Counted from the first letter of the stretch, positions 1 through 34,036 are shown. The stretch: DNA of 59,494 nucleotides from an uncultured bacterium (GCA_964511215.1 CAZEER010000002.1:1-59494); one strand, 5' to 3'. Notes: a model not told the origin generated them from the sequence alone. A program made the numbers and translations.

Positions 1-819
1 ACAAAATTATTTTTTTTAAAAGAAAAACCAGATTATGTATTTGTGGCTGCTGCAAGAGTAGGCGGAATTTTGGCCAATAATACTTTTAAGGGTCAGTTCT
101 TGTATGAAAATTTGGTAATCCAAAATAATATTATTCATTATGCCCATAAAGTTGGTGTGAAGAAATTGCTTTTTCTTGGTTCAGCATGTATATACCCAAA
201 GCTTGCCAAGCAACCTATAAAAGAGCAAGCATTACTTACAGGTGAGTTGGAACCAACAAATGAACCTTATGCGATAGCAAAAATTGCTGGTATTAAGTTA
301 TGCCAAAGTTATTTTGAGGAATATAATGAAAATTTTATCTCAGTTATGCCAAATAATTTATATGGTGAAAATGACAACTTTGATCTTAAAACATCTCATG
401 TAGTTCCGGCTTTGATTCGGAAGATGCATAGTGCAAAAAAAAATGCAAAAAAAGATGTGGAAATCTGGGGCAGTGGTGATCCATTAAGAGAATTTTTACA
501 TGTTGATGATTTAGCAGATGCAGTTGTGTTTTTGATGATTAATCTTGAAGCAAAAGAATTATACAAAATGGATATTGCGCATGTCAACATTGGCTCTGGA
601 AATGAATTAAGTATAAGGCAATTAGCAATTTTAATTAGCAAAATAGTTGGGTTTAAGGGCAATTTAATTTTTAATAATAATATGCTAGATGGTACAATGA
701 GAAAGGTCCTTGATACATCTGTTTTAAATAGTTTAGGATGGAAGCCTAAGATTGGTTTAAATGACGGTTTAAATAGCGTATATAGTTGGTATAAAAAATA
801 TTATTGCGAAAAAATATAG
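1..819 (+). CDS. fcl: GDP-L-fucose synthase (GDP-4-keto-6-deoxymannose 3,5-epimerase/4-reductase), 5'-truncated by the window edge
   Basis: Frame 1 is open from base 1 (TKLFFLKEKPDYVFVAAARVGGI...), so the GTG at 43 is not the real start. AARVGGI, LGSACIYPK, YAIAKIAG (YxxxK) and the NLYGENDNF order are collinear with Fcl/WcaG. Confidence 0.9.
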   Translation, partial: TKLFFLKEKPDYVFVAAARVGGILANNTFKGQFLYENLVIQNNIIHYAHKVGVKKLLFLGSACIYPKLAKQPIKEQALLTGELEPTNEPYAIAKIAGIKLCQSYFEEYNENFISVMPNNLYGENDNFDLKTSHVVPALIRKMHSAKKNAKKDVEIWGSGDPLREFLHVDDLADAVVFLMINLEAKELYKMDIAHVNIGSGNELSIRQLAILISKIVGFKGNLIFNNNMLDGTMRKVLDTSVLNSLGWKPKIGLNDGLNSVYSWYKKYYCEKI

Positions 820-820
820 T

Positions 821-840
821 GGTAGTTATTATGGTAGTTA
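821..840 (+). promoter_or_regulatory. direct-repeat pair GGTAGTTA-N4-GGTAGTTA (ops-like / operator-like motif)
   Basis: Exact octamers at 821-828 and 833-840, starting 2 nt after the fcl stop. Confidence 0.5.
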
Positions 841-917
841 AATATAAGTTAAATAATAACAGTAAATAATAGATAATATGAATTTTAATAAAAAATATAA
901 AAATTTTATATAATAAT

Positions 918-925
918 GGTAGTTA
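918..925 (+). promoter_or_regulatory. single GGTAGTTA motif copy upstream of galE
   Basis: Exact octamer 25 nt before the galE TTG. Confidence 0.4.
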
Positions 926-949
926 ATTAATCTTTATGGAATATATAAA

Positions 950-1930
950 TTGAATTTACTTATTACGGGTGGTGCGGGTTATATTGGATCGCACGTTGTT
1001 TTGGCTGCTCTTGACCAAGGATGTCATGTAACTGTTTTTGATAATTTATCTACAGGTGTTGAACAAAATATTAATAATAAAACTCGTTTTGTATTTGGAT
1101 CGATTTCTTCGAAAAATGAACTATTAAAATTATTTAAAAATAATAAATATGATGCGGTTATTCATCTCGCAGGGAGTAAAGCGGCAGGTGATTCCATGCT
1201 AAATCCTTTAAAGTATGCTGAAGATAATATAATGCATGGGCTTAATCTTATAAATGCTTGTGTAGAGCATGGTATTAAAATTTTCATTTTTTCTTCTTCC
1301 GCAGCAGTCTACGGTAAACCACAATACATTCCAATTGATGAAACTCATCCATTAAAGCCATATAATTATTACGGTTATACTAAACTTGTTATTGAAGAAA
1401 ACCTCAAATGGTTCAGTATGCTAAAAAAAATTCAATTTGCATCATTAAGATATTTTAATGCTGCAGGATATGATATAAATAATAGGATTAATGGTATTGA
1501 AATAAATCCACAAAATCTTATACCAATAGTTATGGAAACTGCAATTGGGAAACGAAAAAAAGTAAAAATATATGGGAATGATTATAAAACTCTAGATGGA
1601 ACTGGGGTACGCGATTATGTACATGTAAATGATCTAGCAAAGGCTCATTTGAACGCAATAGATTATATTCTTAAAAATGAAAAAGATCTCACTATTAATT
1701 TAGGTACAGAAACTGGATATTCAGTTTTAGAAATAATAAATAAAACTATGCATAAAAGTAATAAAATTATAGGATATGATTTTAAAAATAGACGAGTTGG
1801 AGACTCAGATGTACTTATATCAAAATCATCCTTAGCAAAAGAATTAATTAATTGGGAGGCAACATACTCTGACTTAGATACTATAATTAGTTCTACGTGG
1901 CAGGTATATAAGAAAAAATTATGTTTATAA
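950..1930 (+). CDS. galE: UDP-glucose 4-epimerase
   Basis: TTG start with no in-frame ATG upstream. Rossmann LITGGAGYIGSH, YGYTKLVIE (YxxxK) and DGTGVRDYVHVNDLA; 326 aa collinear with GalE. Confidence 0.85.
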   Translation: MNLLITGGAGYIGSHVVLAALDQGCHVTVFDNLSTGVEQNINNKTRFVFGSISSKNELLKLFKNNKYDAVIHLAGSKAAGDSMLNPLKYAEDNIMHGLNLINACVEHGIKIFIFSSSAAVYGKPQYIPIDETHPLKPYNYYGYTKLVIEENLKWFSMLKKIQFASLRYFNAAGYDINNRINGIEINPQNLIPIVMETAIGKRKKVKIYGNDYKTLDGTGVRDYVHVNDLAKAHLNAIDYILKNEKDLTINLGTETGYSVLEIINKTMHKSNKIIGYDFKNRRVGDSDVLISKSSLAKELINWEATYSDLDTIISSTWQVYKKKLCL

Positions 1931-1995
1931 ATATGTTATCTTGAAATAAAGATAATAAATAGGATATTATTTTAAATGCTAAAGAAAATTCAATT

Positions 1996-3294
1996 ATGAA
2001 AAAAAATAAATATGAAATAAAAATAGCTATAATTGGACTTGGATATGTAGGCTTACCCCTTGCAGTGGAGTTCTGTAAAAAATTCTCTGTTGTTGGTTTT
2101 GATTTAAATGAAAAACGAATTGATGAGCTTAATAATAATTATGATAGGACTAATGAAGTCGAAGAAAATGTACTTATTAAATCAAAAAGTCTTATTATTT
2201 CATCAGAAGTTGAATCTATCATTGATGCTAATGTTTATATCGTCACAGTTCCTACACCAATAGATGCTAATAAAAAACCAAATCTCAATCCATTAAAATT
2301 GGCATCGAAAACAGTAGGTGGTGTCCTAGCTGTAAATGACATTGTAATCTATGAATCTACAGTATTTCCTAATTGTACTGAGGAAATATGTGTTCCAATT
2401 TTAGTGAAATATTCCAAATTGAAATATAATGAAGAATTTTTTTGTGGATATAGTCCTGAAAGAATTAACCCTGGAGATAAAGAGCACACTCTTACCAAAA
2501 TAAAAAAAATTACTTCAGGTTCAGATAAAAAAACGGCTCAATTTGTGGATGAGCTTTATGATTGCATAATCGAAGCGGGTACTCTTAAAGTTTCTTCTAT
2601 TGCTGTTGCTGAGGCAGCAAAGGTAATTGAGAACACCCAAAGAGATGTAAATATTGCTCTTGTTAATGAACTAGCTCTTATTTTTAATAAAATGGACTTA
2701 GACTCGAAAGAAATTTTTGATGCTGCATCAACAAAATGGAATTTTATTCCCTTTCGCCCAGGATTAGTTGGAGGACATTGCATTGGTGTAGATCCATATT
2801 ATCTAACCTATAAGGCTAATGATGTTGGGTACGATCCTAAAATTATTTTGGCTGGAAGAAGAATTAATGATGCAATGGGTAATTTTATTGCTGATAGTAC
2901 TATTCAAGAATTAGTAAAGCAAGGGATCCATCCCAAGGGTGCAAAAGTTGCAATATTTGGCATTTCATTTAAAGAAAACTGCCCCGATTTTCGTAATACT
3001 AAAGTTTTATCTATTATTGATCAGTTGAGATATTATAAGTGTAAAATAGTAATATCTGATCATCGGGTTGACTCTATGACTGTTAAAGAAAAACTAGGTT
3101 TGGACCTATGTAGATTAACTGAAGTTAAAAATCAAAATGCTATTATTGTTGCAGTAAGCCACAAAGAATATTATAATTTTAAACAAAATGATTGGAAAAG
3201 AATGCTGCAATCTGGGGGTGTTATAATCGATGTAAAATCAATCTATGACAAAGATACATTTGCTAATAAAAATATTAGATATTGGAGATTATAG
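1996..3294 (+). CDS. UDP-N-acetyl-hexosamine / nucleotide-sugar 6-dehydrogenase (TviB/WbpO/Cap5O type)
   Basis: KIAIIGLGYVGLPLAVEF NAD fold, GYSPERINPGD, catalytic Cys region GLVGGHCIGVDPYYL; 432 aa. Confidence 0.8.
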   Translation: MKKNKYEIKIAIIGLGYVGLPLAVEFCKKFSVVGFDLNEKRIDELNNNYDRTNEVEENVLIKSKSLIISSEVESIIDANVYIVTVPTPIDANKKPNLNPLKLASKTVGGVLAVNDIVIYESTVFPNCTEEICVPILVKYSKLKYNEEFFCGYSPERINPGDKEHTLTKIKKITSGSDKKTAQFVDELYDCIIEAGTLKVSSIAVAEAAKVIENTQRDVNIALVNELALIFNKMDLDSKEIFDAASTKWNFIPFRPGLVGGHCIGVDPYYLTYKANDVGYDPKIILAGRRINDAMGNFIADSTIQELVKQGIHPKGAKVAIFGISFKENCPDFRNTKVLSIIDQLRYYKCKIVISDHRVDSMTVKEKLGLDLCRLTEVKNQNAIIVAVSHKEYYNFKQNDWKRMLQSGGVIIDVKSIYDKDTFANKNIRYWRL

Positions 3295-3302
3295 AAAATT
3301 TA

Positions 3303-4256
3303 ATGGAAAAGATTCTTATAACAGGCAGCGCTGGTTTTATAGGGATGCATTTATGTAAATATTTATTGAATGATGGATATGATGTTTTAGGTATTGATAA
3401 TATTAATAATTATTATAACAGTATATTGAAAAAGAATAGGCTTAAAGTTTTACGAGGTTATGATAACTTTGAGTTTATTAAAGCAGATATATCAGATCTT
3501 AGAAATTTGGAATCTATATTTAATACATATGAGCCGAATAAAGTTGTTAACCTTGCAGCGCAGGCAGGTGTTAGATATAGCTTGAAAAATCCTCACGCAT
3601 ATATTCAATCTAATATAGTTGGTTTTATGAATATTGCCGAATGTTGTAGAAAATATGCAGTAAATGGATTGATTTATGCTTCAAGTTCATCTGTGTATGG
3701 ATTAAATGATGACATCCCTTTTAAAGTTATTGATAGAGTAGATAAGCCAATTTCAATTTATGCGGTTTCAAAAAAAACAAATGAACATATAGCCCATGCT
3801 TATAACCACCTTTACGATTTAAGATCAACAGGGTTGAGATTTTTTTCAGTTTATGGCCCATGGGGAAGACCAGATATGGCTATTTATATATTTACTGATA
3901 AAATTCAAAAAGGTCAAACAATAAACGTATTCAATCATGGGAATATGTACCGTGATTTCACTTACATTGATGATATAATACAAGGTACCGTAGCTAGTAT
4001 AGAGAATAATTATAAATACGAATTATTCAATTTAGGAAATAATAGATGTGAAAATATCATGGAATTAATTGAATTGATTGAAGAAAATTTAAAAATCAAA
4101 GCAAAAATTAAGTTTATGGATATACAGCCTGGTGATGTAGAAAAAACTTTTGCTGATATAAAGTATTCTAAAGATATGTTAGGGTATGAGCCTCATACTT
4201 CAATACATGAAGGTATTCCAAAGTTTATTGATTGGTATAAATCCTATATTATATAG
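3303..4256 (+). CDS. NAD-dependent epimerase, UDP-glucuronate/UDP-HexNAcA 4-epimerase-like (TviC/Cap1J type)
   Basis: The ORF opens at TTG 3282, but ATG 3303 gives MEKILITGSAGFIGMH. YAVSKKTNE (YxxxK) and RFFSVYGPWGRPDMA. Functional partner of the preceding dehydrogenase. Confidence 0.8.
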   Translation: MEKILITGSAGFIGMHLCKYLLNDGYDVLGIDNINNYYNSILKKNRLKVLRGYDNFEFIKADISDLRNLESIFNTYEPNKVVNLAAQAGVRYSLKNPHAYIQSNIVGFMNIAECCRKYAVNGLIYASSSSVYGLNDDIPFKVIDRVDKPISIYAVSKKTNEHIAHAYNHLYDLRSTGLRFFSVYGPWGRPDMAIYIFTDKIQKGQTINVFNHGNMYRDFTYIDDIIQGTVASIENNYKYELFNLGNNRCENIMELIELIEENLKIKAKIKFMDIQPGDVEKTFADIKYSKDMLGYEPHTSIHEGIPKFIDWYKSYII

Positions 4257-4314
4257 ATATTGATTTTATTTAAAACAATTTAATTAAATAGTTTAAATTA
4301 TCCATTTAACTTAA

Positions 4315-4333
4315 GGTAGTTGTTTGGTAGTTA
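4315..4333 (+). promoter_or_regulatory. direct-repeat pair GGTAGTTG-N3-GGTAGTTA
   Basis: Copies at 4315-4322 and 4326-4333 in the 349-bp spacer before the export genes. Confidence 0.5.
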
Positions 4334-4503
4334 ATTCATGATACGCCTATAATAACTTGAAATATTTTATATAATTTTCAATGTATTACTGTTAATAAAA
4401 TTAACTTTTTAATTAAAACCCACTATATAATTCATATGTTGGCAATTAAGATATTATGTAAATTAAAGTAAATTATTTATCAGCAGATATCTTAATTTCA
4501 TAT

Positions 4504-4523
4504 GGTAGTTATAAAGGTAGTTG
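4504..4523 (+). promoter_or_regulatory. direct-repeat pair GGTAGTTA-N4-GGTAGTTG
   Basis: Copies at 4504-4511 and 4516-4523, about 85 nt before the ATG at 4606. Confidence 0.5.
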
Positions 4524-4605
4524 AAATATATTTCTTTAAAGTTATATTTAGATATTCAATGCATAGTATTTTTTCATTCAAAAAGGAAACTATTAAAAGG
4601 TATAT

Positions 4606-5418
4606 ATGAGTAGTATTTATCAAAAAGGTAGAGACGGATATTATTATTATCAGACTTATGTGCTGAATAAAGAAACAGGAAAGAAGAATAAAAAAGTTTT
4701 CCACTCTCTTGGGACTAGAGATTTATCTGAAGCTAAAATAAAACAGGATATTTTAGATAAGAAGTATGAGAAAAAACTAATTCAGGGTAAACGAAAATAT
4801 TTTATAGCCTTTTACAGTAAACTAAGATTTATTTTTGTAGTTGTAGTTACTATATGTATAACAATTATTATTTTAACTCTATTTGATGCTAAAGAGCAGG
4901 GTAATTCCTCTTTTAGTAATAATAATGCTCATATTGAAAAAAATAAAAATAAAAATGTAATTGATGTCAAGCAGGATAGTAAAATAGAAAAATTATTATT
5001 ACCTGAGAAAAAGGTTAATTCTGCAATAAATACAATCATAGCTAAGAAAACAGAGGTTGAAGTTTCTAAAGTAATTAATAAATCACAGCCTAGTATACCA
5101 GAATATTCAATTGCAAGGATTCAACCTTTATCTGATTTGTTTAAACAAGGTAAAATTTTTATAAATGTAAAAAAAGATACAGATGAAAAAAGTTTAGAAT
5201 TATTATGCGAGAAAGTTGCCTCTGATTATTCTGAGTTTGCAAATATAATTATTTGTTTATACGCTGATAATAATGTAGGGAAGGAAATGGCTAGTGGGAA
5301 AGTAAGTAAAATTAATAGCAATGAGCAGAGAGAGGCCTGGCTTGCTATGTACACATATAATCCTGTAGAAGGTAGCTACTTTGATGGAAAACCAGGAAGA
5401 TATCTAGGGAGTTATTAA
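4606..5418 (+). CDS. hypothetical single-pass membrane protein with an integrase-Arm-like N-terminal domain
   Basis: N-terminus IYQKGRDGYYYYQTYVLNKETGKKNKKVFHSLGTRDLSEAKIKQ resembles Arm-type DNA-binding domains of tyrosine integrases. One hydrophobic helix (FIFVVVVTICITIIILTLF) is followed by about 170 aa with no family I recognise. Directly abuts the wza-like start. Confidence 0.5.
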   Translation: MSSIYQKGRDGYYYYQTYVLNKETGKKNKKVFHSLGTRDLSEAKIKQDILDKKYEKKLIQGKRKYFIAFYSKLRFIFVVVVTICITIIILTLFDAKEQGNSSFSNNNAHIEKNKNKNVIDVKQDSKIEKLLLPEKKVNSAINTIIAKKTEVEVSKVINKSQPSIPEYSIARIQPLSDLFKQGKIFINVKKDTDEKSLELLCEKVASDYSEFANIIICLYADNNVGKEMASGKVSKINSNEQREAWLAMYTYNPVEGSYFDGKPGRYLGSY

Positions 5419-8400
5419 ATGAAAAATACATTTTTGATATTTCTTTTAATATTGCAATTTTTATTTTCTCAGACAACGCAACAAATAAAGCGCGCCAAAG
5501 AAATGATGAAAAAAACAGGCATTTCAGAATCAGAGGCACGTACTATGGCCAAATCTCAGGGGTATACTGATAAACAGATTAATGATGCAGTAAAAAAGGC
5601 TAAAGGAAAGAAAGAGGAATCGTATAGCTTAGATAAAACTCAGGAAACTAGAAAAGCTGGAGTCCCTGATCTTGGGAAATCTAATAACTCTGTCGATGAA
5701 AATCCTTTGGAACTTCAAGGGAATGTAATTGAAGATTTAGAAAATGAATTGTCTGCCGATGTGGAGTCCATGGATGTGGATTTCATTGATGAGGATATCA
5801 AGGTAGCAACAGAAGATCAAGATAAAAGAGTGAATCTACAATATTTTGGTTATGCAATATTTCAAAGAGATCCAGCATTATTTCAGGCTACCTCTGTTGG
5901 AGCTGTTGATCCAGAGTATGTTATCGGTCCCGGTGATGAGATTATTTTAATGTTATGGGGTGAGACTCAATTCAGGCAAGTGCTTAGTGTAAATCGAGAA
6001 GGATTTATATTTATTCCTGAAATTGGTCAAGTGTTTGTGAATGGTCTTAACCTTAATTTATTAGAGTCAAAACTGTTTCGAGTATTATCTCAATCTTATT
6101 CAAGCCTAAGTCCACAAGGTAGAAAAGCAACAACATTTCTTGATGTAAGTTTAGGTAATCTTCGCCCTCTGCGTATCCAAGTTATTGGTGAAGTCGCTCA
6201 GCCAGGAGCGTATACAATAAGTCCATCAGCTACACTTTTTTCTGCTCTGTATTATTTTAATGGCCCCACAGTCATGGGTTCATTGCGAGATATTCGATTA
6301 ATAAGAAATGGTAAAGAAATTGCGACTATAGATTTTTATGATTACTTACTTACTGGTAAAAAGCCTAATGATCAAAAATTGCAATTAGGAGATGTTATTT
6401 TCATACCAAAACGAATGAAAACAGTATCGATTGAAGGAGAGGTTAATAGGCCGGGGATTTATGAATTAAAACCTGGAGAAACATTAAAAACAATGTTATC
6501 TATTGGTGGAGACTTAAAGGTTACCGCATATTTAGATCGCGCCCAAATTGACAGAATTGTACCATTTGACAAAAGATTAGAGACAGGGATGGATCGGATG
6601 TATATTGATGTAAACCTAGCTGAATTTTTAGAAGGTGACCAACCATTTGATCTTCTTGATGGTGATAAGATTCAAATTTTTTCAGTTTTGGATGTTCGAC
6701 AAAATGTTGTTGATATCAAAGGCGCTGTTACGCGACCAGGGACATATGATTTAGGAGATTCATTAAGACTTGGTGAATTAATAAATAAGGCTGACGGATT
6801 GCTGGGAGATGCTTATCTTGATAGAATAGATTTAATAAGGACTCTACCAGATTTTAATGAGGAACTAATTAAGTTAAATCTTGATATGGTATTATCTGGA
6901 AATTTAGAGCAAGATATAAAATTGCAAAGTATGGATCAGGTACGAGTGTACAGTATGTCGGAGATGGTCGCAAAAACGTTTGTATCTATTGAAGGTCATG
7001 TAAAAAAACCAGGGGCTTATCCCTTAAAACAAAATATGACTTTATATGATCTAATTTTTAGTGCTGGTGGATATTTGGATGAGGAATTCAAAAAAGATGC
7101 TTATTTAAATAGAGCTGATCTTGTGCGAAAAAGAGATGATAGAAAGAAAACAATCATTCCTTTTAACCTTGGATTAGTTTTAGATAAAGAGGACCTCGCA
7201 TCAACGCTTTTGCAATCAGGAGATTATATAAAAATCTATAGTTTAGAAGAAATTAGAGGTGGCAATGGTACAGTATCAATTAGAGGGCATGTCAAATTCC
7301 CTGGAACATATGAGCTTTATGAAGATAATATGCGTATTAGTGACCTATTATTTAAAGTTGGAGGATTTAATGATGAAAAATTCAAGGCTCTTGTTTTTTT
7401 GGATCGGGCTGACCTGATACGTTTTGATTCAAATTACATTAATAAAAGAGTCATACCTTTTAGCCTTGGGAATATTTTGTCGGACTATGAAGATGAGCAA
7501 AATTTCAGGTTAAATGCAGAGGATGAGATTGTAATTTATTCAAATAAAATTTTTAATGACATTGCAACTGTTAATATTGCTGGTGCGATAAATAATCCTG
7601 GACTTTACGATCTGAAAAATGGGATGACAATTATTGATCTAATCTTAGAGTCTGGAGGTATTCAAAAGGGAGTTTATAAATATTCCATAGAAATTGCGAG
7701 ACTTAACCCGGAAAATGTAAATGATGAAAGCTATGCAAAAACTATTATGCTAGGGATGTATAGTGATTTTACTATTGGTAATATTGACTATGATATATCA
7801 GAAGAATCAGGTAAAGTAAATATTAATCGTCAAAATGATTTTCTACTGGAAGCCTATGATCATGTTACAATCCATGCCGATCCAGAATATCTTTTACAGC
7901 GTAAAGTGTCTATTTCGGGCGCAGTATATTTTCCTGGGGAATATATAATAACGAATTCATCAGAAACTATTTCAGATATTATTAGTAGAGCAGGAAATTT
8001 AAGGCCTAACGCATATCCAATAGCTTCAACTTTTACTCGTCTCGGTCAGATGATTCAGGTTGATTTAGAGGAAATTATTAAGAAACCCTATTCGAAATTA
8101 GATGTGCCTGTTATTGATGGGGATGAAATTTTTGTAGCTGTGCATCCAACAATAATGCAAGTGGTGGGAGAAGTAAGCTCACCAGGGTTTTATAAATTTT
8201 CACCTGGGGGTCGAGTAAATGATTATATTAATCAAGCTGGCGGTTTTTCTCAAGATGCAGAAAAAGGGAACATCTGGATTCGATATCCGTCAGGCGAATC
8301 CAAGAGATACAATAGATTTTTTGGGAATCCAAAAGTTTTAGATGGATCAATAATTACTGTTGGTCGAAAAAAAGAGGAAGAGCCATTTGATAAAACTGAA

Positions 8401-8475
8401 TTTGCTAAAGAAATATCTTCTATTTTGGCAGATTTTGCACAAGTTTTTATATTATTTGTCGCAGTACAACAATGA
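5419..8475 (+). CDS. polysaccharide export outer-membrane protein, giant Wza-like with eight SLBB-type repeats
   Basis: Signal peptide MKNTFLIFLLILQFLFSQ. Poly_export-like YVIGPGDEIILMLWGE. Eight repeats of V.I.G.V..PG.Y.(L) ... GG (e.g. VSIEGEVNRPGIYELK, VSIEGHVKKPGAYPLK). Hydrophobic C-terminal helix FAQVFILFVAV. Confidence 0.85.
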   Translation: MKNTFLIFLLILQFLFSQTTQQIKRAKEMMKKTGISESEARTMAKSQGYTDKQINDAVKKAKGKKEESYSLDKTQETRKAGVPDLGKSNNSVDENPLELQGNVIEDLENELSADVESMDVDFIDEDIKVATEDQDKRVNLQYFGYAIFQRDPALFQATSVGAVDPEYVIGPGDEIILMLWGETQFRQVLSVNREGFIFIPEIGQVFVNGLNLNLLESKLFRVLSQSYSSLSPQGRKATTFLDVSLGNLRPLRIQVIGEVAQPGAYTISPSATLFSALYYFNGPTVMGSLRDIRLIRNGKEIATIDFYDYLLTGKKPNDQKLQLGDVIFIPKRMKTVSIEGEVNRPGIYELKPGETLKTMLSIGGDLKVTAYLDRAQIDRIVPFDKRLETGMDRMYIDVNLAEFLEGDQPFDLLDGDKIQIFSVLDVRQNVVDIKGAVTRPGTYDLGDSLRLGELINKADGLLGDAYLDRIDLIRTLPDFNEELIKLNLDMVLSGNLEQDIKLQSMDQVRVYSMSEMVAKTFVSIEGHVKKPGAYPLKQNMTLYDLIFSAGGYLDEEFKKDAYLNRADLVRKRDDRKKTIIPFNLGLVLDKEDLASTLLQSGDYIKIYSLEEIRGGNGTVSIRGHVKFPGTYELYEDNMRISDLLFKVGGFNDEKFKALVFLDRADLIRFDSNYINKRVIPFSLGNILSDYEDEQNFRLNAEDEIVIYSNKIFNDIATVNIAGAINNPGLYDLKNGMTIIDLILESGGIQKGVYKYSIEIARLNPENVNDESYAKTIMLGMYSDFTIGNIDYDISEESGKVNINRQNDFLLEAYDHVTIHADPEYLLQRKVSISGAVYFPGEYIITNSSETISDIISRAGNLRPNAYPIASTFTRLGQMIQVDLEEIIKKPYSKLDVPVIDGDEIFVAVHPTIMQVVGEVSSPGFYKFSPGGRVNDYINQAGGFSQDAEKGNIWIRYPSGESKRYNRFFGNPKVLDGSIITVGRKKEEEPFDKTEFAKEISSILADFAQVFILFVAVQQ

Positions 8476-8633
8476 AAATATTAAACAAAAATCTGACCAT
8501 GTTATTTCAAGGAAAGAATAAAAATTACTATTTATTTTAGATTGAAAAGAAAATAAATGAATATTTGTGAATATTATATCTTGTTAATGTTTTGCAAAAA
8601 GAGTAAAATTTTTACTCAAAACGTGTTGTTATA

Positions 8634-9179
8634 ATGCTTAATAGTCTCATTACTTCAAAAACTCGCTTAAAACTTCTGATGAAATTCTTTATAAACTCTG
8701 GAACTACATCTTATCTTCGCGAACTTGCAACTGAGTTTGGTGAGTCAACCAACAGTATTCGTTTAGAATTGAATCGTTTAACAGCAGCAAAGTTGCTTTC
8801 ATCGGAAAATGCTGGTAGGACTGTACAATATCAGGCAAATAAAAAACACAGTTTGTTTAATGAAATTAATAGTCTAGTAAAAAAATATATAGGGATAGAT
8901 AAAATTATTGATAAACTAGTAAAAAGAATTGGCTTTGTTGACGCAGCTTATTTAATTGGAGATTATTCTCGTGGTATAGATTCTGGTTTGATTGATTTAG
9001 TATTGGTGGGAGAAATAAATATAAATGTACTTCATGAGATATCTGATAGAAGAGGTGCAGAAATCAAACGCAAAATTCGTTATTTAGTTTTAACAAATAA
9101 GGAACTATTGGAACTGTGGTCTCAACTAGGTATGGATCAAGCATTATTAATTTGGGGAAACCCAATAAAAAACACGTAA
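8634..9179 (+). CDS. winged-helix (ArsR-like) transcriptional regulator with a degenerate nucleotidyltransferase-like C-terminal domain
   Basis: LITSKTRLKLLMKFFIN...SYLRELATEFGESTNSIRLELNRL is the wHTH pattern common next to polysaccharide loci in Bacteroidota-like genomes. C-terminus YLIGDYSRGIDSGLIDLVLVGE looks like a minimal NTase fold lacking a clear DxD. Confidence 0.7.
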   Translation: MLNSLITSKTRLKLLMKFFINSGTTSYLRELATEFGESTNSIRLELNRLTAAKLLSSENAGRTVQYQANKKHSLFNEINSLVKKYIGIDKIIDKLVKRIGFVDAAYLIGDYSRGIDSGLIDLVLVGEININVLHEISDRRGAEIKRKIRYLVLTNKELLELWSQLGMDQALLIWGNPIKNT

Positions 9180-9198
9180 ATATAATTAGTGTTTTTTT
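9167..9198 (+). terminator. possible weak intrinsic terminator overlapping the regulator stop codon
   Basis: AAAAAACAC (9167-9175) pairs perfectly with GTGTTTTTT (9189-9197) across a 13-nt loop and is followed by a T-run. The stem is almost all A-U, so stability is low. Confidence 0.3.
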
Positions 9199-9340
9199 GT
9201 TTTTTACGGGTTAGCAATGGGACTTACAAGGCGGAGCTACATCCTTGATTCAACTACTAATAGATTTATGTTGCAACTTTCTTTCTTTCTTCTATTATTA
9301 CTTCTAGTAAATAGTAACATTGTCTAAATAAATTCAAAAA

Positions 9341-10363
9341 ATGCAAACAAAAAAGGATAATAAGGATATAAAATTATTTGAGGGTAATCTTCAAGAAGTC
9401 TTTTTAATCCTTGTGCAGCAAGTTAGAATAGTTATTCTTACTCCCACAATTTTATGTACAGTGGTTATAATATATGCGTTATTTTTTACAGAACGTTATT
9501 ACACGTCAACTGCTAAAATCATGTCATCAAAGAATAACAAAAATAATTCTGGAGCTATGGGTATAGCGGCACAGTTTGGTATCAATCTTCCTCTTGGTCA
9601 ATCTAATGAAATATGGGTTTACCCAGAAATATTAAAGAGTCGAACTATGGCTCGTACTATTCTGAATAGAAATTTTGATACTAAAAAATTTGGTTCTCAA
9701 AAATCATTAATGCAGATTAAGACTTATGGGAAAAATGATCGCCCGACTGATATGACTATTAAGGAAAGTTTGGCTGTTGATAAATTCATAAAATCAATAG
9801 ATATTAAGGAGGACAGGACGACAGGAATTTTTTCTCTTTCCACAAGCTCATTTGAGCCAGAATTAGCTGCAAATATAATTACAGCTTTAATTCAGGAATT
9901 AGATACTCATCAAAAAGAGCACAATAAGGCTATAGCGAGTAAAACCAGACATTTTATCGATGACCGAATTATTACTGTTGAAAAAGATCTAAGAAATGCT
10001 GAAGAAAGTCTTAGAGATTTTACAATTAGTAATCGACGTATAGAAAACTCACCTTTATTATTACTAGAGCAGGAACGCTTATCAAGGGAAGTCACAGTTC
10101 TTACAGGCGTATTTACAATGTTAAAACAACAATTGGAGACTGCGAAAATTGAAGAGGTTAAAGAATCAAATTATGTTATTATAATTGACCCTCCTGAAAT
10201 TCCAGTTATAGCTAGTGGTCCGAATAGGAGAAAAATGGTAATATTTTCGGGTTTTTTAGGCCTTGGTCTTGGAGTTTTGATTGCTTTATTAGTTAATGTA
10301 TTTCAAGAGCATCAAAAAAGAATCAAAAGTATTTTTGATCTGACCGTAAAAAATTTATTTTAA
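9341..10363 (+). CDS. Wzz-like chain-length determinant (polysaccharide co-polymerase), no kinase domain
   Basis: N-terminal TM (VILTPTILCTVVIIYALFF), central coiled-coil-like region, proline motif DPPEIPVIASGPNRRK and a C-terminal TM (VIFSGFLGLGLGVLIALLV). Confidence 0.75.
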   Translation: MQTKKDNKDIKLFEGNLQEVFLILVQQVRIVILTPTILCTVVIIYALFFTERYYTSTAKIMSSKNNKNNSGAMGIAAQFGINLPLGQSNEIWVYPEILKSRTMARTILNRNFDTKKFGSQKSLMQIKTYGKNDRPTDMTIKESLAVDKFIKSIDIKEDRTTGIFSLSTSSFEPELAANIITALIQELDTHQKEHNKAIASKTRHFIDDRIITVEKDLRNAEESLRDFTISNRRIENSPLLLLEQERLSREVTVLTGVFTMLKQQLETAKIEEVKESNYVIIIDPPEIPVIASGPNRRKMVIFSGFLGLGLGVLIALLVNVFQEHQKRIKSIFDLTVKNLF

Positions 10364-30652: not shown

Positions 30653-31333
30653 GTGTTTCAACCATTCGATAAATTTTTAGAAATCTCATCAATAAATATA
30701 CCTATATTAGAATTTGTTACTAATTTGCTAGCTTCTGCAATGCTATCGTTGATATTAAAAAATGTATATGTTCGATATGGAAAATGTTTATCAAACCGAA
30801 AGGCATTTGGTAATAATTTTATAATTATAACATTGACAACCATGTTAATTATTACTGTTGTGAAATCGTCTTTAGCATTATCATTAGGGCTTGTAGGTGC
30901 TTTATCAATAATAAGGTTTAGAGTTGCAATAAAAGAGCCAGAAGAACTTGCATATTTATTTTTAACTATTGCTATTGGTTTAGGTTTTGGTGCTGATCAA
31001 GGAGCTATTACAACCGTTGCATTTATAATTATTTGTTTGATTTTAGTTATTATTAGTAAAATGACTTATGTTGAGGATATAGAAAAAAATATTAGCTTAA
31101 CAATTTCTTCGGATAATCCAAAAAATGTTAATATCAAAAAAATTAAAGAAGTCTTAAGTACCCATTGCTCAGAAATAGATCTTAGACGCATAGATGAGAC
31201 AGAAGAAATTATAGAGGCATCTTTTTTAGTTGGGTTTAATGATCTCAACAGTCTAAATGAAGCCAAAATTAAATTACAAAAATTAGACAAGTCTTTAAAA
31301 CTTACTTTTTTGGATACAAATGGGCTTATATAA
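30653..31333 (+). CDS. DUF4956-family integral membrane protein
   Basis: GTG start after AAGGAG. SLGLVGALSIIRFRVAIKEPEELAYLF is the hallmark DUF4956 stretch; 4-5 TM helices. Confidence 0.7.
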   Translation: MFQPFDKFLEISSINIPILEFVTNLLASAMLSLILKNVYVRYGKCLSNRKAFGNNFIIITLTTMLIITVVKSSLALSLGLVGALSIIRFRVAIKEPEELAYLFLTIAIGLGFGADQGAITTVAFIIICLILVIISKMTYVEDIEKNISLTISSDNPKNVNIKKIKEVLSTHCSEIDLRRIDETEEIIEASFLVGFNDLNSLNEAKIKLQKLDKSLKLTFLDTNGLI

Positions 31334-34012
31334 ATGATAATTAAACATTCAGATAAAAACCACCTATTTGTTGATTGGTTTAGTTTTGTTTTTTCTAAAA
31401 ATAAACATAACAAAAAACGTGTAAAAGTTTATGTATTACTAATTTTTAGTGCTCTGATGTGTTTTTTTTTAGGGATAGCAATTGCCAAGGCAGGGCTTAT
31501 TGGAAAGTTGATAATTCCCAAAACAAATCATTTGATGGCTTACAGCAAGAATTATGTAAGTGGGCTTTTTTCAAAATCTGAAAATATAATGATTAATATA
31601 AAATTTGAGGACCTTCAAAAACTTCGAAAAAAAAGATATACAGCGATAAATAACCAAAAGTTAGTAACTGAAGCTGATGATTATGTACCTGGAGTTATTG
31701 ATTACAATAATCAAAGTGTAAATGCAAAACTTCGTTTGAAAGGAGATAATCTTGATCATCTGGAGGGAGAAAAATGGTCATTTAGAATCAAAATTCAAGG
31801 AGATCAAACAGTTTTTGGCATGAAAATTTTTTCAATTCATCATCCAAAAACTCGAAATTTTATACATGAATGGATTTTTCATCAATCACTAAAGTTAGAA
31901 GAGCTAATTGGTCTGCGATACAAATTTATTAATGTATCCTTAAATGGTAAAAACTTAGGAGTATATGCTTTAGAAGAGCATTTTGAAAAACGGTTAATTG
32001 AAAATAATAAACATAGAGAGGGGCCAATTATTCGATTTAATGAAAATTTATATTGGGATGAAAAAATTCAACAGGAAATTCCTTTTAATGATGGTCAAGG
32101 TGTAAAAACAAAAAACAGTGTAAGACGTAATGGTGTAGGTGAATATTTATCGAGTGAGATAACTACTTTTCAAGCAAAGCGTTGGCTTTCAGATTCCACG
32201 ATAGTTTTACATAATAAAGCTGTTCATTTATTAGAAGATTTTAGGCAAGGAAAATTAAAAACTAGTGATGTTTTTGACACCAAAAAATTGGCAAAATTCT
32301 TGGCTCTTACGGATGTAATGGGCGCGCATCATGCTGCTTATTGGCAAGGCCAAAGGTTCTACTATAACCCAATAATTTCAAGGCTCGAACCGATAGGCTT
32401 TGATGGAGATAGTGGCACTCCTATAAACTCATTGTGTGTAAACCTTGATATGCGAGAAATACAAATAGGTTCCAATGCAAAACTTGAATCAGAGAAAGAG
32501 CTTCCATATTTTAATTTTTTTGAAATGCTATTCAGCGATATTGCTTTCTATAATGAATATGTTAAATCGTTAGAAAAGTTTTCCCAATCAAAATTTTTGA
32601 ATAATCTTTTTCATCAAATTGATAAAGAATTAAAAAATAATTTGAATATTATTCATGGCGAGTTCCCAAATTTTTTGTTTTCAAGTTCAACATATTATAG
32701 GAATCAAGAATACATCAAGACAGTATTAAAGCCAGTCAAAGGTATCCATGCATATTGCAAAAATGGAAAAAACAACAATATAAAATTAGAGATAGGCAAT
32801 ATTCATATTTTGCCTATTCAAATTTTTAATATTTCATATAAGGATTCGCTCAATTTTTCTATAGAAGGACAGATTCTACAGGCAAAACACCCTTCAAAAC
32901 CTGTAAGTTTTAGTACTATTAGCCTTGAGTTTCCTTTAGGACCTAATTTTAAAAATAATATTGCTTCTAATTTAAAAGTTCATTACAGGGTACTTGGATC
33001 AAATTATGATATGGTGGAATTTGTTTATCCATGGGAGCAATCAAATAATGGAATAGCCCAAAATGATATAATGCGACAAAAGCCTAACGTTAATGAATTT
33101 GAATTTCTAAAAATAGATAATGAGCATAAAAAAATATTTTTTAAGAGTGGCAATTGGGTTATAAAGAAAAATTTAATTGTTCCACCAAATTATGAGCTAA
33201 TTGCTAACGATGGTGTTGGACTTAATTTGTTAGGTTTTACTAAAATAATTTCCTATTCGCCTCTATATTTTTCTGGTTCTGAAGATCGCCCAATCATAAT
33301 TAATTCTACAGATTCAAAAGGACAGGGTATTTTTGTCCTTGAAACCGGTAAAGTATCGATGCTGGAAAATGTTGTCTTTAGCAATTTGTCTGCACCATCA
33401 CACAATGGGTGGGAATTAACTGGATCTGTAACATTCTATGAATCCCCATTTCAAATGTATAATTGTAAATTTAAGGATAGTAGGTCAGAAGATGCTTTAA
33501 ATGCAGTCCGCTCTGAATTTAAAATTGATGGGTGTTCATTTGAAGGTTCTTACTCTGATGCATTTGATGCTGATTTTTCTAAAGGAGAGGTGAGAAATAC
33601 TATTTTTAAAAATTCAAAAAATGATGCCTTAGATGTCTCGGGTAGCGTCTTAGATATTTATGATATATTTGTATATGATTCGGGGGATAAGGGAGTGAGC
33701 ATAGGAGAGAATAGCAGCGTAGAGGCTAGCTTAATATTTATCAATGGAGCTCAGATTGGTATCGCAAGCAAAGATCAATCAAGTTTAATTTGCAATAATA
33801 TTGAGATTTCTAATTCAAAAGTTGGTTTAGCCTTATATCAAAAAAAGCCTGAATTTGGACCCTCTTCAATTAAAATGACACAATTATCAATGGAAAATGT
33901 TGGCATGCCATATTTTGTTGAGTCTCAATCAGAATTAATTTTGAATGGGCAGGTAATTGATTCTCATAAGCAAAATTTTAAAAAATTTATTTTATCCTTA
34001 CAAAATATTTAA
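31334..34012 (+). CDS. CotH-family (atypical kinase fold) protein with an N-terminal membrane anchor and C-terminal parallel beta-helix repeats
   Basis: TM VYVLLIFSALMCFFLGIAIA. CotH-like core AKLRLKGDNLDHLEGEKWSFRIKI...VSLNGKNLGVYALEEHF. C-terminal 250 aa show repeated N/D-x-x-F/I-x-N/D-S turns typical of pectin-lyase-fold beta-helices. Confidence 0.7.
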   Translation: MIIKHSDKNHLFVDWFSFVFSKNKHNKKRVKVYVLLIFSALMCFFLGIAIAKAGLIGKLIIPKTNHLMAYSKNYVSGLFSKSENIMINIKFEDLQKLRKKRYTAINNQKLVTEADDYVPGVIDYNNQSVNAKLRLKGDNLDHLEGEKWSFRIKIQGDQTVFGMKIFSIHHPKTRNFIHEWIFHQSLKLEELIGLRYKFINVSLNGKNLGVYALEEHFEKRLIENNKHREGPIIRFNENLYWDEKIQQEIPFNDGQGVKTKNSVRRNGVGEYLSSEITTFQAKRWLSDSTIVLHNKAVHLLEDFRQGKLKTSDVFDTKKLAKFLALTDVMGAHHAAYWQGQRFYYNPIISRLEPIGFDGDSGTPINSLCVNLDMREIQIGSNAKLESEKELPYFNFFEMLFSDIAFYNEYVKSLEKFSQSKFLNNLFHQIDKELKNNLNIIHGEFPNFLFSSSTYYRNQEYIKTVLKPVKGIHAYCKNGKNNNIKLEIGNIHILPIQIFNISYKDSLNFSIEGQILQAKHPSKPVSFSTISLEFPLGPNFKNNIASNLKVHYRVLGSNYDMVEFVYPWEQSNNGIAQNDIMRQKPNVNEFEFLKIDNEHKKIFFKSGNWVIKKNLIVPPNYELIANDGVGLNLLGFTKIISYSPLYFSGSEDRPIIINSTDSKGQGIFVLETGKVSMLENVVFSNLSAPSHNGWELTGSVTFYESPFQMYNCKFKDSRSEDALNAVRSEFKIDGCSFEGSYSDAFDADFSKGEVRNTIFKNSKNDALDVSGSVLDIYDIFVYDSGDKGVSIGENSSVEASLIFINGAQIGIASKDQSSLICNNIEISNSKVGLALYQKKPEFGPSSIKMTQLSMENVGMPYFVESQSELILNGQVIDSHKQNFKKFILSLQNI

Positions 34013-34036
34013 AATAGATATCATAAAATTTTAAAT

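What the first reader, a model, noticed from the sequence alone, without database searches (positions are those of the whole stretch)
4257..4605. ops-like GGTAGTT(A/G) direct-repeat pairs in the leader of the export operon
The largest spacer between genes in the window (349 bp) holds two tandem pairs: GGTAGTTG-ttt-GGTAGTTA (4315-4333) and GGTAGTTA-taaa-GGTAGTTG (4504-4523). The register is 11-12 bp, one helical turn, and all copies are in the + orientation. Three more copies sit in the fcl-galE spacer. From base composition (0.15^3 x 0.35^4) I expect about 3 GGTAGTT heptamers per strand across the whole 59.5 kb. By eye I saw only two isolated coding copies (13235, 42915). In contrast, 7 copies lie within under 500 bp of non-coding DNA. 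Two hypotheses follow. (a) The GGTAG core matches the core of the enterobacterial ops element (GGCGGTAGCGTG as I recall it), which recruits the NusG paralog RfaH in leaders of long LPS/capsule operons. A unidirectional locus of at least 55 kb would plausibly need processive antitermination. (b) The repeats are helical-phase operator sites for a locus-encoded DNA-binding protein, either the Arm-like protein at 4606 or the wHTH regulator at 8634.
Basis: partly seen in the sequence, partly recalled or inferred. Interest (0 to 1): 0.65.

Follow-up and report, generated by a model that had tools for sequence, protein, structure and literature searches.

The report
Conserved tandem repeats at glycan promoters
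The GGTAGTT repeat pairs are real, are conserved in front of the same surface-sugar export operon in about 90 related uncultured marine bacteria (Marinimicrobia), and look like promoter-bound docking sites for a regulatory protein rather than ops-type antitermination signals.

Summary
GGTAGTT occurs 13 times in the window against 4.1 expected. Seven copies lie on the + strand in two spacers. Three of them form tandem pairs with an 11-12 bp period, against 0.03 pairs expected.

The window is a Marinimicrobia (SAR406) glycan locus. In 91 related loci the motif piles up in the 500 bp before homologs of ORF 4606-5418, at 10.7 copies per kb against about 0.1 per kb elsewhere.

The promoter-proximal pair has a fixed layout. 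Its second repeat overlaps a TTGACA-like -35, and a TAnhnT hexamer follows 20-21 nt later in 36 of 62 distinct modules. Some clades carry pairs on the opposite strand, each with its own TATAAT.

The ops/RfaH reading is not supported. The GC stem of ops is missing, copies are tandem and occur in both orientations, they mostly sit upstream of the predicted start site, and no NusG-like ORF turned up in the window.

The operator reading is supported. The best candidate binder is the always-adjacent 270-aa protein. It has a basic, highly conserved N-terminal beta-beta-beta-alpha domain (weakly integrase-arm-like), one membrane helix and a periplasmic domain, which is a ToxR-like layout. The wHTH at 8634 is present in only 6 of 26 informative loci. 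Binding and the transcription start site remain untested.

The parts
821..840 (+). Tandem pair GGTAGTTA-ttat-GGTAGTTA (period 12), directly after the fcl stop codon in the fcl-galE spacer
   Evidence: The same arrangement (a pair plus a single site before galE) is conserved in L006.
918..925 (+). Single GGTAGTTA 25 nt before the galE start, just after a promoter-like TTAATA(885)-18-TATAAT(909-914)
   Evidence: Conserved in L006.
4315..4333 (+). Distal tandem pair GGTAGTTG-ttt-GGTAGTTA (period 11). It overlaps a promoter-like TTGGTA(4324-4329)-18-TATAAT(4348-4353).
   Evidence: Unchanged in L015 although the flanking spacer carries SNPs.
4504..4523 (+). Proximal tandem pair GGTAGTTA-taaa-GGTAGTTG (period 12). 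Its second repeat overlaps the -35 of the predicted operon promoter.
   Evidence: A pair in this position occurs in most of the 72 distinct upstream regions.
4521..4548 (+). Predicted sigma-70-type promoter: TTGAAA (4521-4526), 16-nt spacer, TATATT (4543-4548). The inferred start site is near 4555 and the leader is about 50 nt.
   Evidence: 10 of 12 matches; a TAnhnT hexamer starts 20-21 nt after repeat 2 in 36 of 62 distinct proximal modules, with consensus GTAGTTGACAT...TGTAAATT. This is a prediction only; no RNA data exist.
4606..5418 (+). First gene of the export operon: a 270-aa protein. Residues 1-38 form a beta-beta-beta unit followed by a long helix from residue 40. The membrane helix is at about residues 68-94, followed by a variable linker and a conserved alpha/beta C-domain at about residues 165-270. 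This is the candidate binder of the repeats.
   Evidence: It is adjacent to the motif cluster in all related loci.
5419..8475 (+). 1018-aa outer-membrane polysaccharide export protein (Poly_export plus multiple SLBB domains). It always directly follows the 4606 homolog.
8634..9179 (+). 181-aa protein with a weak ArsR-like wHTH match at the N-terminus and a C-terminal half that looks nucleotidyltransferase-like by eye.
   Evidence: A homolog is present in only 6 of 26 related loci that extend past the export gene. There is no GGTAG in its own upstream spacer.

Best explanation
The GGTAGTTR pairs are double-stranded-DNA regulatory sites: head-to-tail half-sites 11-12 bp apart. They mark the promoters of the glycan export operon (4606-5418, the SLBB export gene and downstream genes) and of the neighbouring sugar-precursor operon (galE, tviB, tviC) in marine Marinimicrobia.

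At the operon promoter the second half-site overlaps the -35 hexamer and the first lies about one helical turn upstream. Further pairs lie 50-350 bp upstream and, in a few genomes, inside the leader.

The most likely binder is the product of the first gene. Its basic, nearly invariant N-terminal beta-beta-beta-alpha domain would sit in the cytoplasm and bind the repeats as a head-to-tail dimer, much as integrase arm domains bind tandem arm sites. Its single membrane helix and periplasmic C-domain would tie that binding to the state of the envelope or of the export machine. This is a ToxR-like, membrane-tethered, self-regulated switch.

I lean towards positive control of the PhoB/ToxR class-II type, but the sign is not resolved.

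Shown here: the motif, its conservation, its position and its linkage to the gene. Inferred: the promoter assignment, the protein topology, DNA binding by this protein and the sign of control.
For: - Enrichment in the window.
- Conservation. In 91 related loci the GGTAGTT density is 10.7 per kb in the 100 bp before the homolog's ATG, 2-7 per kb out to -500, and about 0.1 per kb elsewhere. Pairs occur at 2.53 per kb in the upstream 600 bp against 0.024 per kb elsewhere, and 62 of 73 loci have at least one strict pair. This holds across lineages of 30-42% GC.
- Motif shape. Anchoring on GGTAG alone recovers T (88%), T (78%) and R (83%) after it. The period is 12 in 78 pairs and 11 in 50.
- Promoter geometry. 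A TAnhnT hexamer starts 20-21 nt after repeat 2 in 36 of 62 proximal modules, with a TTGACA-like consensus overlapping the repeat. Minus-strand pairs have TATAAT 16-17 nt downstream on their own strand in 8 of 10. The window promoter scores 10 of 12.
- Extra pairs stand before other glycan genes: galE in the window and L006, tviB in L014, L086 and L039, tviC in L020, and an oxidoreductase operon in L069.
- Linkage. The 4606 homolog is always followed by the SLBB export gene and always preceded by the motif cluster.
- The protein. The N-domain has 73% mean column identity against 52% for the whole protein. It is predicted as three strands plus a helix with pLDDT 85-90, followed by a membrane helix and an alpha/beta domain. 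It has 17 K/R against 7 D/E in its first 64 residues (read). Pfam DUF6538 is hit by 23 of 24 members, best E 8e-5, below threshold. hhalign against a lambda-type integrase arm-domain alignment gives probability 45% and E 2e-4 over the GYYxY...DPxTGK core.
- A paralog in L001 has only the membrane anchor and C-domain, so the N-domain is a separate module.
- The phage P4 record annotates integrase arm sites as adjacent 12-bp tandem repeats.
- Between the window and L015 the spacer carries 17 SNPs, none of them in either pair or in 4487-4571.
Against: - No binding data and no transcription start exist. No RNA run covers the locus.
- The arm-domain assignment is weak. Foldseek against PDB and BFVD gave nothing significant (best E 0.19), PHROGs gave nothing, and PDB sequence search gave nothing.
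- Adjacency could simply reflect that this is the first gene of the operon.
- The distance from pair to -10 is not constant: 15 nt at the window's distal pair, 16-17 nt at minus-strand pairs, 20-21 nt at proximal pairs.
- In L014/L086, L057/L065, L067 and L009 a pair lies 4-28 nt from a start codon, so it must be transcribed or lie at the start site. That fits a repressor or a transcribed element better than a class-II activator.
- The -35 is near consensus, which activator-dependent promoters usually are not.
- Genome-wide distribution could not be tested.
Confidence: 0.45

Rival explanations
1. The repeats are the same kind of DNA operator, but another transcription factor encoded elsewhere binds them, or in some genomes the wHTH protein at 8634 does. 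The 4606 protein would then be only an envelope component of the export machine.
For: All the evidence for a DNA-level promoter element is neutral about the binder. The arm-domain assignment of the 4606 N-domain is sub-threshold. The protein is translationally adjacent to the export gene, as a structural partner would be. A wHTH gene lies in the window's locus.
Against: The wHTH homolog is present in only 6 of 26 informative loci. The N-domain is the most conserved part of the 4606 family and carries invariant polar and aromatic residues on its strands, which matches an invariant ligand. It is basic and sits on the N-terminal side of the membrane helix. No other regulator gene is conserved next to the motif.
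Confidence: 0.35
2. An ops-like element. The + strand GGTAGTT copies are read on the non-template strand of a paused elongation complex and recruit a specialised NusG paralog that makes transcription of the locus (at least 55 kb) processive.
For: The GGTAG pentamer is shared with the E. coli ops core GCGGTAGC (PMC11685472). All seven window copies are on the coding strand. The locus is long and unidirectional. In a few related loci a pair lies within 4-28 nt of a start codon, so it is certainly transcribed or at the start site. No intrinsic terminator separates tviC from the spacer, so read-through could transcribe the pairs.
Against: - C precedes GGTAG in only 6% of sites and TT follows, so the ops hairpin stem cannot form.
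- Known ops and opsX elements are single sites. Here the units are tandem pairs with a helical period.
- 56 of 320 distinct sites are on the opposite strand, as pairs with their own TATAAT.
- The proximal pair sits upstream of a conserved -35/-10.
- The first gene of the operon is not a NusG paralog, and no NGN/KOW match was found in the window ORFs scanned.
Confidence: 0.05
3. An RNA-level element. The GGUAGUU pairs in the 5' leader bind an RNA-binding protein or act as ribosome-binding sequence to control translation or stability.
For: Strong strand bias: 264 + against 56 -. In L014/L086 the second repeat supplies AAGG 9 nt before the tviB ATG. Pairs lie 15-28 nt from the ATG in L057, L065, L067 and L009.
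Against: Most pairs lie upstream of the predicted -10. Minus-strand pairs exist. There is no Rfam match. No conserved pairing partner for the repeats was seen.
Confidence: 0.05
4. Recombination sites. The pairs would be arm-type or inverted-repeat targets of a site-specific recombinase that flips or deletes a promoter segment (phase variation), as at Bacteroides capsule promoters.
For: In the 40% GC clade a + pair (about -370) and a - pair (about -205) form an inverted repeat around roughly 140 bp that carries a TATAAT. The N-domain resembles integrase arm domains weakly.
Against: No flipped form was seen among 10 distinct loci or in the contigs of 4 DNA runs. No deletion joint between the window's two direct pairs appears in run X1. 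No recombinase gene is in the window or the flanks scanned. The window has only direct copies.
Confidence: 0.03

Closest known systems
RfaH/ops (Proteobacteria) and UpxY/opsX (Bacteroides) antitermination signals
   Same: They stand at the head of long polysaccharide operons, share the GGTAG pentamer with ops, and are mostly on the coding strand.
   Different: Those elements are single sites in the transcribed leader. They are read as a non-template DNA hairpin (GCGGTAGC or YGCGNAGCR) by a NusG paralog, which in Bacteroides is the first gene of the operon (PMC11685472). Here the sites are tandem pairs with an 11-12 bp period, lack the GC stem, occur on both strands, lie mostly upstream of a predicted -10, and the first gene is not NusG-like.
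PhoB/OmpR-type boxes (two 7-bp direct repeats with an 11-bp period at the -35 region)
   Same: Two head-to-tail heptamers one helical turn apart that overlap or replace the -35, with extra upstream boxes at some promoters (the PhoB comparison is from my own knowledge).
   Different: No response regulator or wHTH of that family is linked to the sites. The -35 TTG is kept, and the distance from pair to -10 varies from 15 to 21 nt.
ToxR/CadC/TcpP membrane-bound one-component regulators
   Same: The candidate binder has the same layout: an N-terminal cytoplasmic domain, a single membrane helix and a periplasmic domain with two invariant cysteines. ToxR also binds direct repeats near -35 (my own knowledge).
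   Different: The N-domain is not an OmpR-type winged helix but a roughly 38-residue three-stranded sheet plus a helix. DNA binding is not shown.
Integrase arm-type DNA-binding domains and their arm sites (lambda Int, P4 Int, Tn916 Int)
   Same: The order of secondary-structure elements is the same, beta-beta-beta-alpha. There is a shared GYYxY...(D/N)PxTGK...LG core with lambda-type Int and sub-threshold Pfam DUF6538 hits. Arm sites are short direct repeats set side by side; P4 has adjacent 12-bp arm repeats.
   Different: There is no recombinase catalytic domain and the domain is fused to a membrane anchor. Similarity is below every curated threshold and Foldseek finds nothing significant. 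The sites sit at promoters, not at an attachment site.

Membership tests
RfaH ops element | 12-nt consensus with the hairpin-forming core GCGGTAGC | tested here: not met
   Only GGTAG is shared. The base before it is C in 6% of 264 sites, and the bases after it are T (88%), T (78%) and R. The ops core is taken from PMC11685472.
RfaH ops element | A single site located in the transcribed leader, downstream of the start site | tested here: inconclusive
   Sites are tandem pairs, often several per region. The proximal pair lies upstream of a conserved -35/-10 prediction in 36 of 62 modules. A few loci have a pair 4-28 nt from the ATG. No start-site data exist.
RfaH ops element | Functional only on the non-template (coding) strand | tested here: not met
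   56 of 320 distinct GGTAG sites in the upstream regions are on the other strand, as pairs followed by their own TATAAT. In the window itself all seven are on +.
RfaH ops element | A specialised NusG paralog (NGN plus KOW) in the genome | not testable with these tools
   The window ORFs scanned gave no NGN/KOW match. They are all 30 ORFs from 43 to 34720, plus the eight ORFs under 270 aa between 37788 and 59109. The rest of the genome is not available.
Bacteroides UpxY/opsX | The first gene of the operon encodes the NusG paralog, and the leader carries a YGCGNAGCR hairpin plus a pause hairpin | tested here: not met
   The first gene (4606) has no NGN/KOW match. The motif lacks the GCG..AGC stem (PMC11685472).
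Tandem direct-repeat operator at a promoter (PhoB/OmpR-like working principle) | Two or more head-to-tail half-sites about one helical turn apart | tested here: met
   Period 12 in 78 pairs and 11 in 50. The window pairs have periods 12, 11 and 12.
Tandem direct-repeat operator at a promoter (PhoB/OmpR-like working principle) | A fixed position relative to the core promoter, overlapping -35 | tested here: inconclusive
   By prediction this is met for proximal modules and for window 4521-4548. However, promoter-like hits in the region are no more frequent than in shuffles (30 against 32.2), and there are no start-site data.
ToxR-like membrane-bound transcription regulators | A cytoplasmic N-terminal DNA-binding domain, one membrane helix and a periplasmic domain | tested here: met
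   The architecture comes from the alignment and the AlphaFold model. The N-in topology is inferred from the charge distribution.
ToxR-like membrane-bound transcription regulators | The DNA-binding domain is an OmpR-type winged helix | tested here: not met
   The model shows three strands and one helix. No Trans_reg_C or HTH family was hit.
Integrase arm-type DNA-binding domain | A three-stranded sheet packed on a C-terminal helix | tested here: met
   The AlphaFold model has E3-6, E13-20, E27-34 and a helix from residue 40, with mean pLDDT 84.7.
Integrase arm-type DNA-binding domain | Sequence or structure match to a curated arm-domain family | tested here: inconclusive
   Pfam DUF6538 is hit in 23 of 24 members, but with best E 8e-5 and below the gathering score. 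That DUF6538 is an integrase N-terminal domain is my recollection and was not verified. hhalign against lambda-type Int arm domains gives 45% probability over 15 columns and against P4 Int 2%. Foldseek's best E is 0.19, with integrases at ranks 16 and 23. PDB gave nothing.
Integrase arm-type DNA-binding domain | Attached to a tyrosine-recombinase catalytic domain | tested here: not met
   A profile search of 1.84 billion proteins listed its best 150 hits, and all are the same roughly 265-aa architecture or fragments of it. No integrase domain was found.

The most novel reading that the evidence does not exclude
Marinimicrobia control their main surface-glycan locus with a previously undescribed kind of membrane-tethered transcription factor. 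An integrase-arm-like beta-sheet DNA-binding domain, freed from any recombinase, is anchored in the inner membrane. It binds tandem GGTAGTTR 'arm sites' at the -35 of its own operon and of the precursor operon. Its periplasmic domain would read the state of the adjacent export channel, so that glycan export feeds back on transcription of a 55-kb locus.
Probability: 0.35. Interest if true: 0.75.

Novelty: new variant of a known kind. Interest (0 to 1): 0.6.

Why it matters
Marinimicrobia (SAR406) are abundant, uncultured ocean bacteria, and I know of no described promoter or regulator for them. This motif gives a conserved, testable cis-element, a predicted promoter and a candidate regulator for their largest cell-surface gene cluster. 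Surface glycans shape phage susceptibility, grazing and particle attachment. If the adjacent protein is the binder, it would add a new DNA-binding fold to the small class of membrane-bound one-component regulators. It would also be an example of an integrase arm domain reused for gene control. For genome annotation, the pair motif is a simple marker for the start of glycan operons in this phylum.

Tried and rejected
- RNA evidence. No metatranscriptome holds the window locus or L011, and laying three RNA runs gave no coverage. The start site therefore rests on prediction.
- Rfam scan of window 1-10000 at E<=1: no family.
- Foldseek. The full model hit only the C-domain weakly (DUF487, E 0.02). 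The N-domain gave nothing significant against PDB or BFVD.
- PDB sequence search with both profiles: nothing.
- PHROGs scan of the N-domain: nothing consistent.
- A profile search of 1.84 billion proteins with the N-domain found 307 matches at E<=0.001. The 150 best listed are all the same family, so no link to other architectures was seen among them.
- Helical phasing between successive pairs. The window's 189 bp looked like 18 turns, but over 40 distances there is no 10.5-bp periodicity (Rayleigh p 0.37). This idea was dropped.
- Invertible-promoter idea for the 40% GC clade: no flipped or deleted form in loci or contigs.
- Literature searches for the motif, DUF6538 and Marinimicrobia glycan regulation found nothing relevant.
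- A sigma-54 or ECF promoter reading of the pair was considered by eye and rejected. The pair is GG..GG rather than GG..GC, and the distance to a CGTC-like element is too short.

Full report
**Observation**

- GGTAGTTG 4315-4322 and GGTAGTTA 4326-4333, period 11.
- GGTAGTTA 4504-4511 and GGTAGTTG 4516-4523, period 12.
- GGTAGTTA at 821-828 and 833-840 (period 12), and at 918-925.

The heptamer occurs 13 times on both strands, against 4.10 +/- 2.03 in dinucleotide-preserving shuffles; none of 100 shuffles reached 13. The stricter unit, two copies 11-12 bp apart, occurs three times against 0.033 in 300 Markov simulations.

The six are 13235, 42915 and 44994 on +, and 16585, 49689 and 53609 on -. 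The 349-bp spacer is indeed the largest in the window, and every long ORF is on the + strand.

**Context**

The window has about 31% GC. It is one long glycan locus:
- GDP-fucose synthase, GalE, a TviB-like UDP-GlcNAc dehydrogenase and a TviC-like epimerase.
- The spacer.
- A 270-aa protein without a curated family (4606-5418).
- A 1018-aa Poly_export/SLBB outer-membrane export protein (5419-8475).
- A small wHTH protein (8634-9179) and a Wzz/GNVR chain-length protein.
- About 50 kb of sugar-modifying enzymes, methyltransferases, aminotransferases and an ABC transporter.

Homologs of the 270-aa protein number at least 379 clusters. All are from marine metagenomes, and the few that are named are Candidatus Marinimicrobia.

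**Conservation of the motif**

I fetched 14 loci from genomes and 80 from metagenomes through this protein. In 91 loci with the gene start, GGTAGTT reaches these densities:
- 10.7 per kb in the 100 bp before the ATG (94 sites, all on the gene's strand).
- 6.8 (+) and 3.2 (-) per kb at -200 to -101.
- 2-4 per kb out to -500.
- About 0.1 per kb elsewhere.

Strict pairs are about 100-fold enriched: 2.53 per kb in the upstream 600 bp against 0.024 per kb elsewhere. Of 73 loci, 62 have at least one strict pair, and the others have looser variants such as GGTAGC, GGTAGTC or period 10. The loci span 30-42% GC, so this is not a composition effect.

Anchoring only on GGTAG in the upstream regions gives 264 distinct sites on the gene's strand and 56 on the other, against about 25 expected per strand. 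It recovers T (88%), T (78%) and A/G (83%) after the pentamer, and a weak A-T before it. The period is 12 in 78 pairs and 11 in 50.

Between the window and its 97%-identical relative L015 the spacer carries 17 substitutions. None falls in either pair or in 4487-4571.

**Position relative to promoters**

When proximal modules are aligned on the last repeat, the consensus is GGTAGTkATAAnrGTAGTTGACATAT...TGTAAATT. A TAnhnT hexamer starts 20 or 21 nt after the second repeat in 36 of 62 distinct modules, against 0-5 at most other offsets. The last TT of the repeat plus Gnnn therefore forms a TTGACA-like -35, with a 16-17 nt spacer to a -10.

In the window the scan finds TTGAAA (4521-4526), a 16-nt spacer and TATATT (4543-4548), matching 10 of 12 positions. 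It also finds TTGGTA (4324)-18-TATAAT (4348-4353) over the distal pair, and TTAATA (885)-18-TATAAT just before the 918 site. The number of promoter-like hits in that AT-rich region is no higher than in shuffles, however, so the cross-locus statistic carries the weight.

The inferred start is near 4555, giving a leader of about 50 nt. Predicted leaders across loci fall into classes of 25-28 nt and 51-55 nt.

In the 40% GC clade, pairs on the opposite strand at about -205 are followed on their own strand by TATAAT 16-17 nt later in 8 of 10. The unit 'pair then -10' therefore exists in both orientations.

Distal + pairs show no fixed -10. In a few loci a pair lies too near a start codon to be upstream of a start site: 4 nt in L014/L086 before tviB, and 15-28 nt in L057/L065, L067 and L009. 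The sites thus act from several positions, as sites of DNA-binding regulators do.

Pairs also stand before other glycan genes: galE in the window and L006, tviB in L014/L086 and L039, tviC in L020, and an oxidoreductase/acetyltransferase operon in L069. No pair occurs in the other spacers of the window.

**The ops hypothesis**

The E. coli ops sites all encode the non-template hairpin GCGGTAGC, and Bacteroides opsX encodes YGCGNAGCR. These are single sites in the leader, and in Bacteroides the NusG paralog is the first gene of the operon (PMC11685472). Here:
- Only GGTAG is shared.
- The stem-forming C before it is present in 6% of sites, and TT follows.
- The unit is a tandem pair with a helical period.
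- One site in six is on the other strand.
- The main pair is upstream of the predicted -10.
- The first gene has no NGN/KOW domain, and none was found in the scanned ORFs: all 30 ORFs from 43 to 34720, plus the eight ORFs under 270 aa between 37788 and 59109.

I cannot exclude transcription through the pairs from upstream. No terminator-like site follows tviC, and no RNA data exist. I therefore leave this reading about 5%.

**Who binds**

Synteny is strict. In every locus that extends far enough, the 4606 homolog is followed directly by the SLBB export gene and preceded by the motif cluster. The 8634 wHTH homolog is present in only 6 of 26 loci that reach past the export gene, and its own upstream spacer has no GGTAG.

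The 4606 family has this layout:
- A nearly invariant N-terminus, MSSIYRKGRDGYYYYQTYVYNPETGKKDKRIFHSLGT, with 73% mean column identity against 52% for the whole protein.
- A hydrophobic helix at about residues 68-94.
- A variable linker.
- A conserved C-domain with two invariant cysteines.

AlphaFold models give three strands (3-6, 13-20, 27-34) and a helix from residue 40 that runs into the membrane helix. They also give a confident alpha/beta C-domain. The first 64 residues carry 17 K/R and 7 D/E, which fits a cytoplasmic, nucleic-acid-binding head. That topology is inferred.

A paralog in L001 has only a membrane anchor plus the C-domain, so the N-domain is a separable module.

Its kinship is weakly indicated:
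- Pfam DUF6538 is hit by 23 of 24 members, but below threshold (best E 8e-5).
- hhalign against an alignment of lambda-type integrase arm domains, built from tool-fetched phage records, gives 45% probability over the GYYxY...DPxTGK core.
- The match against P4 Int is 2%.
- Foldseek, PDB sequence search and PHROGs give nothing significant.
- A profile search of 1.84 billion proteins found 307 matches at E<=0.001; the 150 best listed are all this same architecture or fragments of it.

The order of secondary-structure elements, beta-beta-beta-alpha, is that of arm-type domains. Arm sites are short side-by-side direct repeats; the P4 record annotates adjacent 12-bp arm repeats. So the analogy is coherent, but membership is not established.

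**Mechanism proposed**

The pairs are dsDNA sites at glycan promoters. Most likely they are bound head-to-tail by the cytoplasmic N-domain of the membrane-anchored first gene product, whose periplasmic domain would couple binding to envelope or export status. That is a ToxR-like autoregulated switch built on a different DNA-binding fold.

Shown: the motif, its conservation, its position and its linkage. Inferred: the promoter, the topology, the binding and the sign of control.

I lean to activation, because the 'pair then -10' module recurs in a fixed orientation at several promoters. The consensus-like -35 and the pairs inside leaders would fit repression equally well.

My confidence that this is a DNA-level cis-regulatory element is about 0.85. 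My confidence that the 4606 protein is the binder is about 0.45.

**What led nowhere**

RNA runs, Rfam, fold searches, helical phasing between pairs, inversion or deletion variants and the literature all gave nothing.

**Verdict**

Interpretation (a) is not supported. Interpretation (b) is supported in kind, with the 4606 protein favoured over the 8634 protein. I found no description of the motif or the protein family, so I file this as a new variant of a known kind: tandem-repeat promoter operators with a membrane-tethered one-component regulator.

Noticed in passing
window 30653-34720: A trio of DUF4956 (30653-31333), a CotH-like 892-aa protein (31334-34012) and a VTC-domain protein (34037-34720) sits in the middle of the glycan locus. 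This looks like a polyphosphate- or kinase-related module, which is unusual among sugar enzymes.
   Followed up: no
window 8634-9179: A small protein with a weak ArsR-like wHTH match (NCBIfam E 3e-4, below cutoff) and a C-terminal half that looks nucleotidyltransferase-like by eye. A homolog lies between the export and chain-length genes in only 6 of 26 related loci.
   Followed up: partly
L001 5630-5810 (also L002-L005, L042, L050, L054, L055, L073): In the 40% GC clade a + pair and a - pair form an inverted repeat around roughly 140 bp. That segment carries a perfect TATAAT facing away from the operon, so it is either a divergent promoter or small RNA, or an invertible segment. No flipped form was seen in 10 loci or in the contigs of 4 DNA runs.
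   Followed up: partly
L001 4462-5100: A paralog with a signal or membrane anchor plus the conserved C-domain, but without the N-terminal domain. It lies about 900 bp upstream of the full-length gene in the 40% GC clade.
   Followed up: partly
L017, L022, L035, L047, L048, L001, L003 and L073: predicted leaders, about 45-25 nt before the ATG: The 53-nt class of predicted leaders holds a small hairpin, AAGGAA...TTCCTT, with compensatory variants AAGAA/TTCTT and GAGAA/TTCTC. The window's leader has only a weak counterpart.
   Followed up: no
L013, L014: These contigs carry this Marinimicrobia-type locus but are filed under MAGs named Nitrospinaceae and Methanobacteriota archaeon. They are probably mis-binned.
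   Followed up: no
L014/L086 about 3455-3480; L057, L065, L067, L009 just before the gene: Pairs directly abut start codons. In L014/L086 the pair ends 4 nt before the tviB ATG, with the second repeat supplying an AAGG 9 nt upstream. In the other loci the pair ends 15-28 nt before the 4606 homolog. These pairs must be transcribed or lie at the start site.
   Followed up: partly
window 5754-7365: One low-depth contig of DNA run X1 joins 5754 to 7365 inside the repetitive SLBB export gene, skipping 1610 bp. This is either a strain variant with fewer SLBB repeats or an assembly collapse.
   Followed up: no
window 4836-4849: TGTAGTTGTAGTTA lies inside the 4606 coding sequence. It encodes the VVVV run of the membrane helix and has a period of 6. 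It is a coding coincidence, not a regulatory pair.
   Followed up: yes
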